DNA from: Escherichia coli
GTDB lineage: Bacteria; Pseudomonadota; Gammaproteobacteria; Enterobacterales; Enterobacteriaceae
Strand: one strand, 5' to 3'
Assembly (NCBI RefSeq): GCF_003018255.1
Contig: NZ_CP027440.1
DNA: 64,000 bases
Shown here: positions 39,101-42,100 of the stretch, in pieces
Position numbering within the stretch: position 1 is the first letter of the stretch
Layout: each line of letters starts with the position of its first letter
Position numbers: made by a program

Positions 39101-42100
39101 GTTTATTCACTCTATACGCCATCAGAGCAGTTTTATCCGCCTGGCGCACCAATCCCGTGGCCATCAGATACCGTTCCGTCTGGCTATGCCCTGATGCAGG
39201 GGCAGACTTTTGACAAATCTGCATACCCGAAACTTGCAGCCGCTTATCCGTCAGGCGTGATCCCTGATATGCGTGGCTGGACGATTAAGGGCAAACCTGC
39301 CAGTGGTCGGGCCGTATTGTCTCAGGAACAGGACGGCATTAAATCGCACACCCACAGCGCCAGCGCATCCAGTACGGAATTGGGGACGAAAACCACATCG
39401 TCGTTTGATTACGGCACTAAATCCACGAATAACACCGGGGCGCACACGCACAGTGTGAGCGGTACAGCCGCAAGTGCCGGAAACCATACTCATAGTGTCA
39501 CAGGCGCATCAGCAGTCAGCCAGTGGTCACAAAATGGGTCAGTACATAAGGTAGTGTCTGCGGCCAGTGTGAATACAAGTGCTGCAGGAGCGCACACTCA
39601 TAGTGTCAGCGGCACAGCTGCATCTGCAGGTGCTCACGCACATACTGTCGGTATTGGTGCTCATACGCACTCTGTTGCGATTGGCTCACATGGACACACC
39701 ATCACCGTTAACGCTGCTGGTAACGCGGAAAACACCGTCAAAAACATCGCATTTAACTACATTGTGAGGCTTGCATAATGGCATTCAGAATGAGTGAACA
39801 ACCACGGACCATAAAAATTTATAATCTGCTGGCCGGAACTAATGAATTTATTGGTGAAGGTGACGCATATATTCCGCCTCATACAGGTCTGCCAGCAAAC
39901 AGTACCTATATTGCACCGCCAGATATTCCGGCTGGCTTCGTGGCTGTTTTCAACAGTGATGAGGCATCGTGGCATCTCGTTGAAGATCATCGGGGTAAAA
40001 CGGTTTATGACGTGGCTTCCGGCGACGCGTTATTTATTTCTGAACTCGGCTCATTACCGGAAAATGTCACCTGGTTATCCCCGGAAGGGGAGTTTCAGAA
40101 GTGGAACGGCACAGCCTGGGTGAAAGATGCAGAAGCAGAAAAACTATTCCGGATCCGGGAGGCGGAAGAAACAAAAAACAGCCTGATGCAGGCAGCGAAT
40201 GAGCATATTGCGCCACTTCAGGATGCTGTGGATCTGGAGATCGCAACGGAAGAAGAGGCGTCGTTGCTGGCAGCATGGAAGAAGTATCGGGTGTTGCTGA
40301 ACCGTGTTGATACATCAGTAGCACCGGATATTGAGTGGCCTGCTGTCCCTGTTATGGAGTAATCGTTTTGAGATACGCCGCATACACGTTGTATGCAATA
40401 ACGTGCTGCGGCTTGGTAAATTTTAGCTAGTTTCAGCAGGAGACATAAAAAACTTCAATATAAGATTAAGCATCACGTATTGCCAATCTGATTTTTGACT
40501 GATACCAATTGGGGCCTTCTGCAATTATTTCTTCCTCAACATGCATGATGGGATGCATTTCAATTTCAGAGTTTTTGACTTTTAGATCTAGTCCATATTT
40601 TTTTGAAATTTGTAAAACTTCATTTTTGAAATCCTTATCTGCGAAAGGTGAAATCCTTATTTCTTCCAACAGATTGTTAAGAGATACAGGGACTAGTTTT
40701 CCCTTTACAGGTGGAGTGTTAAAGGTATTCTCTTGAAAAATAGCTCTAAACTCTTTTTCGTATTCGAAAGATGGTCTCTTGTTAAAGAATACATCTGATT
40801 CTGGATTGTATTGTTTTATCCAGAAATTTTTGACGTATTTTACGTGTTTTAATTGTAGTTTGTTTAAATTATTATTTTCAAGTTGGCTTTGGAGGTTTTT
40901 TTTCTTTGATTTTATGACAACGCCTTTAGCGGGGTTTTTACAATACAGCTTCCACATAGCTTCAGATTCATGTTCGTTACAATGCCAGCAACTTATATAT
41001 GTCCTCTCGCTTATTTCCTTAAGTGTCTTTAAATTGAATGCCATGAAAGGATCTAAGTCCATGCCGGCACCATGAGTAGCGCATAGTTTTTCCTGTGTCT
41101 CAATGAATTTTTTATAGCCAGTATGTCCCCAAGCAAATTCACCTTCGAATGGATCTTCAAAATTTTTTGCTGAGCAAAAAAATAAAGCATTTTGTTCGAG
41201 TAACATAGAGAATTTCTCTATGTCAAGGTATCGCCATATATACTCAGTGTGCATGATAGCTCCTTGCAATATAACTATTTCTATCTGTTCATTTGTACTT
41301 AAAAAGGATTGAGTAGCCTGAACAGTTCTATCCGTAAATATACCAGATAGAAGAGTTGTACAATAACAAATCCTCCGTATAAGAACCAGCCATAATAGTC
41401 TGGTTCTTAAGGTTTTTTTTTGTTCGAGGGGGGGGGGCTACGATTCGTCCCCATATCGGCGATAAATTAGGCTTGTACCAACGCTTCTGTTTCTGTGAGT
41501 GAAATCTGATAGCGTTTTACTGCCTCAGCAAAGGCGTGCGCGGCATCTGCATTTGATACCATATATTCTTCAGTTACCCCTGTTTGAGAATGGAAAGTAA
41601 TATTTCCATAAATGCAAATAGGGATTTGGTAGTTGTCTTTAAAACGACGGTCTGGTGAGCCATTCTTATTCGTTTTCGCCCATGTATAACCATCTATGCG
41701 TGAGTCACTGGGAACACCTTCTTCCTCATGGAATCTTAGATATTCTGAACTAATTTGTAATTCGCGTAAATCAATCAGAGCGAATGCTCCATCAGCTCGT
41801 GGTATGACTGCAACTCCAGGATAAAGCAAAATATCGTCTCCATTTACATTTTCAAACCTCATCGCACGCCCTGTAAATTGAATGAGATCCGTTGAACTAA
41901 AATCAAAGGTAACTGGGTGACGATTAACAGACCGGGTTGCTAATGTTCTTTCAGCAAACTGGTCTGTAGCTTTATCTGCAGTAATATCCCATTTTTTGAC
42001 ACTCGATTTTAACATATCAAATGCATGGACCATCGCTGCATATGCGCGCTGTGAAGCATCACTGCTCTCGAATGTTATGGCTATTTTTGTGCTGTCTTCC

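What the first reader, a model, noticed from the sequence alone, without database searches (positions are those of the whole stretch)
41381..41437. T9 and G10 homopolymer tracts in the promoter region of the 267-aa moron
A hairpin followed by nine T, then GTTCGA, then ten consecutive G lies in the 197-bp gap between two minus-strand genes, upstream of the 267-aa gene. Homopolymeric G tracts of this length are rare in E. coli and prone to slipped-strand mispairing, so this could be a length-variable switch controlling expression of the downstream moron.
Basis: seen in the sequence. Interest (0 to 1): 0.5.

Follow-up and report, generated by a model that had tools for sequence, protein, structure and literature searches.

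The report
Unstable G-run in old attachment scar
The T9 and G10 runs are real and differ in length between E. coli strains, but they lie in a decayed leftover of a proline-tRNA phage attachment site about 100 bases upstream of the neighbouring gene's likely promoter, so they are most likely mutational debris and not a gene switch.

Summary
There is a hairpin at 41381-41408, T9 at 41413-41421, GTTCGA, then G10 at 41428-41437, which is the longest homopolymer in the window.

On the minus strand, 41454-41372 is a decayed copy of the 3' part of tRNA-Pro(GGG) (proL) plus a phage-type proL terminator, which is a fossil attachment-site scar. The hairpin matches the one downstream of an intact, prophage-occupied proL at 24 of 25 bases. 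The C-run descends from the T-arm (GGTTCAAATCCTCT, then GGTTAAAACCCCT, then C10). The A-run descends from the AAAA spacer after the CCA end.

Tract lengths vary across the 121 of 5,426 complete E. coli genomes that carry the locus, and across metagenome contigs. T ranges from 7 to 9 and G from 4 to 10, and I saw 13 alleles. Six of these sit on backgrounds with no substitutions over 3.0-3.5 kb. Near-clonal genomes nevertheless share the same allele.

The tracts lie 30 nt after the DUF4236 stop codon and 98-107 nt upstream of the predicted start site of the best DUF2971 promoter candidate. They are not in a core promoter.

Verdict: slippage-prone and length-variable is supported. A promoter switch is not supported by the anatomy, and expression was not tested. 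The finding is ordinary and of low interest.

The parts
41372..41454 (-). Fossil attachment-site scar: a decayed 3' part of tRNA-Pro(GGG)/proL, starting in the anticodon loop at ATGGGG, followed by the phage-type proL terminator region.
   Evidence: MAFFT alignments to intact proL plus its downstream sequence in L014 and K-12, and to the intact 47-nt proL fragment after DUF4236 in L037-L039. Local alignment score is 59 for the window and 67 for the G4T4 allele, against 19 +/- 2.3 (maximum 35) for 500 shuffles. ARAGORN and Rfam call no tRNA here.
41381..41408 (-). Stem-loop AAGAACCAG(AC)-TATTAT-(GG)CTGGTTCTT. It is a remnant of the terminator hairpin that follows proL in prophage-occupied loci. 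Its U7 tail has decayed to UUCUUAU.
   Evidence: 24 of 25 bases match AAGAACCAGCCTATTATGGCTGGTT, with 0 matches expected by chance. Folding energies: intact copy -19.4 kcal/mol, relic -15.5 kcal/mol. Invariant in all 23 distinct haplotypes.
41413..41421 (.). T9 run (A9 in the tRNA sense). It derives from the CCA-AAAATCC spacer between the tRNA 3' end and the terminator. On the + strand it also follows the hairpin like a terminator U-tract.
   Evidence: Alignment shows CCAAAAATCCC, then AACAAAAAAACC (A7), then A8 and A9. Lengths of 7, 8 and 9 are seen across genomes. In the + strand fold, the stem with its CCU/AGG extension abuts U9.
41422..41427 (-). The GTTCGA spacer (TCGAAC in the tRNA sense). 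It is a remnant of the acceptor-stem 3' strand CCGACC. Variants are GTTCTA and a shortened TCGA.
41428..41437 (.). G10 run (C10 in the tRNA sense). It grew out of the T-arm remnant: GGTTCAAATCCTCT, then GGTTAAAACCCCT, then C5 to C10.
   Evidence: Allele series G4T4AAC, G5T4AAC, G6T3AAC, G7T2AAC, G6TAAC, then G7, G8, G9 and G10 directly followed by C. G10 is found only in strain LD91-1, which is 100% identical to the window.
41467..42669 (-). Upstream gene: a 400-aa protein with an N-terminal DUF4236 domain. It is the terminal cargo gene of a proL-associated element.
   Evidence: Pfam DUF4236 5.6e-21. phrog_17982 3.4e-194. Orthologues of 87-93% identity in five other Enterobacterales; in the three of 91-93% identity an intact proL 3' fragment starts about 17 nt after the stop codon.
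40466..41254 (-). Downstream gene: a DUF2971 protein of 262 aa counted from ATG 41254.
   Evidence: Pfam DUF2971 8.6e-06. PADLOC PDC-S31 3.5e-20. AAGGAG at 41265-41260 lies 5 nt before the ATG.
41337..41363 (-). Best candidate promoter for DUF2971: TTGTAC (41363-41358), a 15-nt spacer, then the extended -10 TGgTATATT (41345-41337). This is a prediction only.
   Evidence: Read from the sequence. It was not listed by the consensus scan, which requires a 16-18 nt spacer. The 117-nt segment 41255-41371 has only 1 variable column among 23 haplotypes.

Best explanation
The hairpin, the T-run and the G-run are parts of one object. That object is a decayed copy of the 3' portion of the tRNA-Pro(GGG) gene proL together with the terminator that phage-borne copies of this attachment site carry. 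It is a scar left where an element ending in the DUF4236 gene once abutted a proL attachment site. Lambdoid prophage mosaicism has since carried it to other sites; in this window the prophage sits at the icd site.

Read in the tRNA sense (the window's minus strand), the C-run is what remains of the T-arm, the A-run is the A-rich spacer after the CCA end, and the hairpin is the terminator stem, which has lost its U tail. Short runs (C4, A4-5) lengthened through substitutions at the run borders and then through replication slippage. This produced a roughly 30-nt hypervariable patch. The mutation mechanism is inferred from the allele series; the homology and the polymorphism are shown directly.

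The patch lies in the 3' untranslated or intercistronic RNA of DUF4236, upstream of the hairpin and about 100 nt upstream of the predicted DUF2971 promoter. The most likely functional status of the G-run is therefore none, or at most a weak influence on read-through. DUF2971 is probably expressed from its own promoter, which is also an inference.
For: 1. Homology. In Enterobacter hormaechei, Pseudenterobacter timonensis and Klebsiella indica, the orthologous DUF4236 gene (91-93% amino-acid identity) is followed about 17 nt after its stop codon by an intact 47-nt proL 3' fragment and a hairpin with a U7 tail.
2. In an E. coli prophage at yejM-proL (L014), the intact tRNA-Pro(GGG) is followed by AAAATCCCTTAAGAACCAGCCTATTATGGCTGGTTTTTTT. 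The window's hairpin matches this at 24 of 25 bases, with 0 matches expected by chance.
3. Local alignment scores are 59 and 67, against 19 +/- 2.3 for shuffles.
4. K-12's own proL terminator is different, so the relic derives from a phage-type copy.
5. In L014 the intact proL and the relic are direct repeats that bracket only a DinI-like pseudogene and DUF4236.
6. Variation is concentrated in the patch. 21 of 84 relic columns are variable and all lie between the T-run and the G-run. This compares with 1 of 117 in the promoter/5'UTR segment, 0 of 28 in the hairpin, and 1.7-2.9% in the two coding sequences.
7. Six alleles sit on backgrounds with no substitutions over 3.0-3.5 kb. The same alleles recur in clades more than 100 SNPs apart over 20 kb.
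8. The G/T border moves at constant total length (G5T4, G6T3, G7T2).
9. An IS1 insertion is tolerated inside the patch.
10. No promoter-like hexamer pair spans the tracts.
Against: No expression data exist, so a regulatory effect of tract length cannot be excluded. The hairpin and the 117 nt downstream of it are very well conserved, so part of the scar may have been co-opted, for example as a terminator or insulator. The T-run has lengthened in a way that improves a + strand terminator. The hypervariability could in principle reflect diversifying selection and not mutation bias. Allele calls come from assemblies, and only 35 of the roughly 130 known copies were read base by base.
Confidence: 0.75

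Rival explanations
1. The G-run, the T-run or both form a contingency locus. Slippage changes their length and thereby switches or tunes transcription of the downstream DUF2971 gene. DUF2971 is an ADP-ribosyltransferase-like candidate anti-phage protein that could be costly to express.
For: Tract length is polymorphic on otherwise identical backgrounds and is homoplasic. G9-G10 runs are rare in this DNA. The downstream gene hits the PADLOC candidate family PDC-S31. DUF2971 proteins are ART-like, and one of them, Aristaios, is a validated abortive-infection system (PMC11381338, PMC12522546). This is the kind of gene for which bet-hedging would make sense.
Against: The tract is at about -98 to -107 from the predicted start site, beyond a hairpin. 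It is not in a -35/-10 spacer, a 5'UTR or an ORF. It is a decayed tRNA fragment. The three near-clonal loci read base by base carry one allele, as does a second pair 1 SNP apart, and five further same-study strain pairs have identical match lengths. The commonest allele is the short, stable G4T4AAC, and most sampled G4 loci carry a DUF2971 pseudogene.
Confidence: 0.07
2. The hairpin plus T9 has been co-opted as a + strand intrinsic terminator. It would stop transcription that leaves the tail-fibre operon (stf-tfa, + strand) and runs antisense through DUF2971, so insulating DUF4236. On this view the T-run is functional and its growth from T5 to T7-T9 was selected, while the G-run is a bystander.
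For: In the + strand fold, a 10-bp stem with a CCU/AGG extension directly abuts U9, at -14 kcal/mol and z = -4. The scan found no + strand terminator between tfa and this site. The hairpin is invariant. T-run length stays at 7 or more in every allele.
Against: The consensus scan did not flag it, because the loop is 10 nt and 3-4 nt separate the main stem from the T-run. The stem is only moderately GC-rich. Q-modified late transcription in lambdoid phages ignores terminators (established knowledge). The structure is fully explained as an inherited tRNA terminator read backwards.
Confidence: 0.2
3. The length differences are homopolymer sequencing or assembly errors, not biology.
For: Many complete genomes are long-read assemblies, which are error-prone at runs of 8 or more. 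G10 is seen in a single genome, whose closest relative (4 SNPs per 20 kb) has G9. One G8 genome (L003) also has a split DUF4236 gene, which suggests indel errors.
Against: Alleles are shared by several independent genomes and are identical within near-clonal sets. G8 occurs in two independent metagenome contigs, at least one of them from a short-read assembly. Many alleles differ by substitutions and multi-base changes, not by +/-1. The paper describing the collection that includes LD91-1 reports Illumina plus ONT hybrid assembly for its sequenced strains (PMC7763555).
Confidence: 0.05

Closest known systems
Partial tRNA 3'-end direct repeats (att scars) at the borders of prophages and genomic islands. 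Examples are P4-like elements at leuX and CP4-57 at ssrA, with e14/phage 21 using the icd 3' end in the same way (cited from established knowledge).
   Same: The sequence is homologous to the 3' part of a tRNA gene starting in the anticodon loop. It is colinear with the phage-supplied terminator. It lies immediately after the last gene of an element. In sister loci it forms a direct repeat with an intact proL.
   Different: In this window it is no longer at an element border. It is internal to a prophage integrated at icd, no second proL copy is present, and it is heavily decayed, with internal deletions and run expansion.
Homopolymer (SSR) contingency loci in promoters. Examples are the Bordetella fim poly-C tract, the poly-G spacers of Neisseria porA/opc, and the variable G-repeat in the Helicobacter pylori tlpB leader targeted by the RepG sRNA (cited from memory and from the reference list of PMC8928963).
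   Same: It is a long G/C run that changes length between isolates by slippage, and it sits in non-coding DNA next to a gene whose variable expression could be useful.
   Different: The run is not in a promoter spacer, an activator site, a leader or an ORF. No intraclonal variation was seen and no expression link is known. E. coli is not known to rely on this mechanism (from memory).
Polymorphic intergenic mononucleotide repeats in Escherichia genomes (survey in PMC8928963).
   Same: Long homopolymers (10 or more) in Escherichia are mostly intergenic, are partly phage-derived, and vary in length between strains.
   Different: That survey found A/T runs to be 11.6 times more frequent than G/C runs, so a G10 is at the rare end. 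Here the evolutionary origin of the run, a tRNA T-arm remnant, can be traced.

Membership tests
SSR-mediated phase-variable promoter (contingency locus) | A homopolymer long enough to slip at high frequency (about 8 or more G/C) | tested here: met
   G10 in the window. Six tract alleles (T9G10, T9G9, T9G8, T9G7, T8G8, T8G7), with G7 to G10, sit on the same haplotype.
SSR-mediated phase-variable promoter (contingency locus) | The tract lies in the -35/-10 spacer, a regulator-binding site, the 5'UTR or the ORF of the controlled gene | tested here: not met
   It is 30 nt after the upstream gene's stop codon and at about -98 to -107 from the predicted DUF2971 start site, beyond a hairpin. No hexamer pair spans it and no ORF of 20 aa or more covers it. 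The promoter itself is only predicted.
SSR-mediated phase-variable promoter (contingency locus) | Tract length is polymorphic among isolates, independently of the flanking haplotype | tested here: met
   Six alleles have no substitutions in 3.0-3.5 kb of flanks. T9G9, T8G8 and T8G7 each occur in clades more than 100 SNPs apart over 20 kb.
SSR-mediated phase-variable promoter (contingency locus) | Frequent, reversible switching within a clone | tested here: inconclusive
   Near-clonal genomes read base by base share one allele (L032/L033/L035; L027/L029). Five same-study strain pairs have equal match lengths. No read-level data were available, so rates below about 1e-3 per isolate cannot be seen.
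SSR-mediated phase-variable promoter (contingency locus) | Gene expression changes with tract length | not testable with these tools
   This needs reporter fusions or RNA measurements.
tRNA-derived attachment-site scar | Significant similarity to the 3' part of a tRNA gene | tested here: met
   Alignment to proL from ATGGGG (anticodon loop) through the T-arm remnant and acceptor remnant. Scores of 59 and 67 against shuffles of 19 +/- 2.3.
tRNA-derived attachment-site scar | Colinear with the sequence that follows the tRNA in occupied att sites | tested here: met
   The hairpin is 24 of 25 bases identical to the one after the intact proL in L014, and it differs from the K-12 native terminator.
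tRNA-derived attachment-site scar | Forms a direct repeat with an intact tRNA copy and brackets an inserted element | tested here: inconclusive
   Met in sister locus L014, where proL and the relic bracket a DinI-like pseudogene plus DUF4236. Not met in this window, which has no proL sequence elsewhere.
tRNA-derived attachment-site scar | An associated integrase that uses the site | not tested
   No integrase lies in the roughly 2-kb bracketed segment of L014. The integrase ends of those prophages were not fetched.
Rho-independent terminator | A stable stem-loop immediately followed by a U-tract on the transcribed strand | tested here: inconclusive
   On the minus strand (tRNA and gene sense) the stem is kept but the U7 tail has decayed to UUCUUAU. 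On the + strand the stem is followed by U9 after AAGG or an extended stem. Neither was flagged by the consensus scan.

The most novel reading that the evidence does not exclude
The expanded C-run and A-run in the DUF4236-DUF2971 intercistronic RNA act as a heritable, slippage-driven rheostat. They would work, for example, by altering Rho loading, RNA polymerase pausing or slippage, or pairing with the GGAGG after the hairpin. This would set how much read-through reaches the ADP-ribosyltransferase-like DUF2971 defence candidate. An E. coli prophage would then have a phase-variable abortive-infection module built from a recycled tRNA fragment.
Probability: 0.05. Interest if true: 0.55.

Novelty: new member of a known kind. 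Interest (0 to 1): 0.2.

Why it matters
Mainly as a cautionary and explanatory case. A striking G10/T9 pair next to a defence-like gene turns out to be the eroded T-arm and trailer of a tRNA-Pro attachment site. The allele series (G4T4AAC through to G10) shows step by step how unconstrained short runs grow into hypermutable homopolymers. It also marks a junction between two mobile elements: DUF4236 is the terminal cargo gene of a proL-associated element, and DUF2971 belongs to its neighbour. That helps in dissecting prophage mosaicism and cargo acquisition. If tract length did affect DUF2971 expression, this would be a rare example of SSR-based phase variation of a defence gene in E. coli, but nothing found here points that way.

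Tried and rejected
- Rfam search of 40300-43200 at E-value up to 1 gave no hit. ARAGORN found no tRNA or tmRNA in the window.
- The consensus promoter/terminator scan put nothing at the tracts, and its site counts were no higher than in shuffled sequence.
- A megablast of the locus against 50,697 phage records gave no match. A tblastn search with DUF4236 found only distant relatives (32% or less over the full length) or the 55-aa N-terminal domain. No isolated phage therefore carries this junction.
- An exact search for the hairpin in one-genome-per-species contigs gave 0 hits. The protein-based scan was what recovered the informative Enterobacter, Klebsiella and Pseudenterobacter loci.
- I looked for a small ORF or a frameshift-sensitive reading frame across the tracts. 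The only nearby ORF is a 21-aa one starting in the hairpin loop, and it does not cover the tracts.
- I looked by eye for + or - strand -35/-10 pairs whose spacer would include either run. The spacers were 13-14 nt or more than 20 nt, so I rejected them.
- I considered an antisense sRNA ending at the hairpin plus T9, but found no convincing + strand promoter in 41270-41380.
- I considered a G-quadruplex and rejected it, because there is only a single G-run.
- A literature search for proL prophage sites returned nothing usable.
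Full report
**Observation.** The window reads AAGAACCAG-CCATAATAGT-CTGGTTCTT (41381-41408), AAGG, T9 (41413-41421), GTTCGA, G10 (41428-41437). G10 is the longest homopolymer in the 64 kb, and the only other G/C run of 7 or more is a G7. A published survey of Escherichia genomes reports A/T homopolymers as 11.6 times more frequent than G/C ones, with runs of 10 or more mostly intergenic (PMC8928963). The observation therefore stands.

**Genes around it.** Both flanking genes are on the minus strand.
- Upstream is a 400-aa protein with an N-terminal DUF4236 domain at 41467-42669.
- Downstream is a DUF2971 protein at 40466-41254. I count it from ATG 41254, which has an AAGGAG 5 nt upstream. 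It hits the PADLOC candidate family PDC-S31 (3.5e-20) and Pfam DUF2971.
- DUF2971 proteins have been described as ADP-ribosyltransferase-like and related to DarT/AbiGi (PMC12522546). A lactococcal member, Aristaios, is a validated abortive-infection system (PMC11381338).
- To the left on the + strand lie the side tail fibre and tail-fibre assembly genes. The prophage sits at the icd site.
- The window is 100% identical, over the 12.5-kb locus fetched, to E. coli LD91-1, a strain isolated from Père David's deer. The paper describing that collection reports hybrid Illumina plus ONT assembly for its sequenced strains (PMC7763555).

**Is the tract variable?** Yes.
- The 501-bp locus occurs in 121 of 5,426 complete E. 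coli genomes, in 5 IMG/VR contigs and in 6 metagenome contigs.
- Reading 35 copies base by base gave 13 alleles:
  - T9 or T8, GTTCGA, then G7, G8, G9 or G10 followed directly by C
  - T9 or T8, CGA, then G6TAAC
  - T8, GTTCTA, then G7TTAAC, G6TTTAAC or G5TTTTAAC
  - T7, GTTCGA, then G4TTTTAAC, which is the commonest class judging from match lengths
- Six alleles (T9G10, T9G9, T9G8, T9G7, T8G8, T8G7) sit on backgrounds with no substitutions over 3.0-3.5 kb (alleles).
- In a comparison of 20-kb flanks, the same allele recurs in clades more than 100 SNPs apart. The window (G10) differs by 4 SNPs from a G9 genome. A T8G7 genome nests within a T9G9 clade.
- Genomes 3 or fewer SNPs apart always share one allele. 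Five same-study strain pairs have equal match lengths.
- The patch therefore mutates much faster than ordinary sites, but I saw no sign of rapid intraclonal switching.
- Variation is sharply localised. All 21 variable columns of the 84-column relic lie between the T-run and the G-run. This compares with 1 of 117 in the segment holding the putative promoter and 5'UTR, 0 of 28 in the hairpin, and 1.7-2.9% in the two coding sequences.

**What it is.** I searched for relatives of the DUF4236 protein in one-genome-per-species contigs.
- In Enterobacter hormaechei, Pseudenterobacter timonensis and Klebsiella indica, the orthologue (91-93% identity) is followed about 17 nt after its stop codon by CATGGGGTGTCGGGGGTCGGAGGTTCAAATCCTCTCGTGCCGACCA. 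This is the exact 3' 47 nt of tRNA-Pro(GGG), proL. After it come an A-rich spacer and a hairpin with a U7 tail.
- In an E. coli prophage occupying yejM-proL (L014), ARAGORN calls the intact tRNA-Pro(GGG). It is followed by AAAATCCCTTAAGAACCAGCCTATTATGGCTGGTTTTTTT.
- The window's hairpin, read on the minus strand, matches this at 24 of 25 positions, with 0 matches expected by chance.
- Alignment shows the whole stretch 41454-41372 to be a decayed copy:
  - ATGGGG is the anticodon loop.
  - TCGTAG-GTTAAAACCCCT corresponds to TCGGAG-GTTCAAATCCTCT, the T-arm.
  - TCGAAC corresponds to CCGACC, the acceptor 3' strand.
  - AAAAAAA corresponds to AAAAATC, the trailer.
  - The hairpin follows, with its U7 tail decayed to TTCTTAT.
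- Local alignment scores are 59 for the window and 67 for the G4T4 allele, against 19 +/- 2.3 (maximum 35) for shuffled queries.
- K-12's native proL terminator has a different stem, so the relic descends from a phage-type att copy.
- In L014 the intact proL and the relic are direct repeats that bracket only a DinI-like pseudogene and DUF4236. This is the signature of a degraded element integrated in tandem.
- In this window no other proL-like sequence exists. The scar has been carried into an icd-site prophage by mosaic recombination.

**How the runs arose (inferred).** The G4T4AAC allele is closest to the tRNA sequence and is therefore the oldest state.
- The series G5T4, G6T3, G7T2 keeps total length constant while the G/T border moves.
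- T7-G-TT became T9 or T8 through a G-to-T change.
- Both patterns are what transient-misalignment ('dislocation') substitutions at run borders produce (established mechanism, cited from memory).
- Once a run reaches about 7 bases, +/-1 slippage dominates (G7 to G10, T8/T9).
- The sequence is a functionless remnant, so nothing opposes this.
- An IS1 insertion with a 9-bp GGTTTTAAC duplication sits in the patch in one genome.

**Position relative to expression signals.**
- On the coding strand the order is: DUF4236 stop (41469-41467), the relic with C10 and A9, the hairpin, TTGTAC-15-TGgTATATT (41363-41337), a structured leader, AAGGAG, and ATG 41254.
- The G-run is thus at about -98 to -107 and the T-run at about -83 to -91 from the predicted start site. 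Both are too far upstream for a spacer or UP-element effect.
- The consensus scan finds no promoter over the tracts, and no ORF covers them.
- On the minus strand the hairpin lacks a U tail, so it is at best a weak terminator. Some DUF4236-to-DUF2971 read-through is plausible.
- On the + strand the same stem, extended by CCU/AGG, abuts U9 at -14 kcal/mol and z = -4. It could act as a terminator for transcription leaving the tail-fibre operon. This rival use of the T-run cannot be excluded.

**Comparison with known systems.**
- The object meets the sequence-based criteria of a tRNA-derived att scar.
- It fails the positional criterion of SSR promoter switches, although it meets the length and polymorphism criteria.
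- Intraclonal switching is unresolved and the expression effect is untestable here.
- I therefore file it as a new member of a known kind, a decayed att scar with hypermutable runs, and not as a contingency locus.

**Verdict.** The 'promoter switch' half is not supported by the anatomy or origin and remains untested experimentally. Interest is low (0.2). The residual novel reading, a read-through rheostat for an ART-like defence gene, gets about 5% probability.

Noticed in passing
window 40466-41254 (-); L009, L011, L012, L014, L017, L018: The DUF2971 gene (PADLOC PDC-S31, ADP-ribosyltransferase-like) is intact in the window. It has a premature stop at codon 130, 33 or 12 in most loci carrying the G4T4AAC allele. 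RefSeq starts the intact gene 48 nt downstream of the ATG that has the strong AAGGAG site.
   Followed up: partly
L014 about 3280-4060 (NZ_AP038246.1): An IS1A element is inserted exactly in the variable patch of the scar, with a 9-bp target duplication GGTTTTAAC. It separates DUF4236 from the DUF2971 remnant.
   Followed up: partly
L037, L038, L039: 2344-4310: In Enterobacter hormaechei, Pseudenterobacter timonensis and Klebsiella indica, the DUF4236 gene lies about 290 nt after a complete tmRNA gene (ssrA) and is followed by an intact 47-nt proL 3' fragment. A single-gene islet is therefore flanked by two different RNA-gene att sequences. In L037 an ORF beginning MCGRF follows the fragment; that N-terminus is typical of SOS-response-associated peptidases.
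   Followed up: no
window 41327-41351 (-): The inverted repeat TCTATC-N13-GATAGA overlaps the extended -10 of the candidate DUF2971 promoter. A second inverted repeat, CTGTTCA...TGAACAG, lies in the leader. These may be operator or leader structures, and they are invariant across haplotypes.
   Followed up: no
window 43115-44972 (+): Two more cargo genes lie between DUF4236 and the icd attachment end. One is a 209-aa protein (phrog_16890, unknown function). The other is a DUF3800 protein with a weak PADLOC PDC-M04A hit (6.5e-05). In L032 an IS5-family element interrupts the 209-aa gene. This may be a small defence-gene cluster at the prophage end.
   Followed up: no
L003 1816-3017 (NZ_CP027462.1): DUF4236 is annotated as two ORFs in this genome, with 2 mismatches and an extra gap relative to otherwise identical loci. 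This is either a real frameshift or an assembly indel error, so single-genome homopolymer calls should be read with caution.
   Followed up: no
L008, L009, L014, L036 versus the window: The block tfa-DUF2971-scar-DUF4236 occurs in lambdoid prophages at no fewer than three chromosomal sites (icd, yejM-proL, next to sitD). The right-hand neighbours differ between them. This shows that the block moves as a unit by prophage mosaicism.
   Followed up: partly
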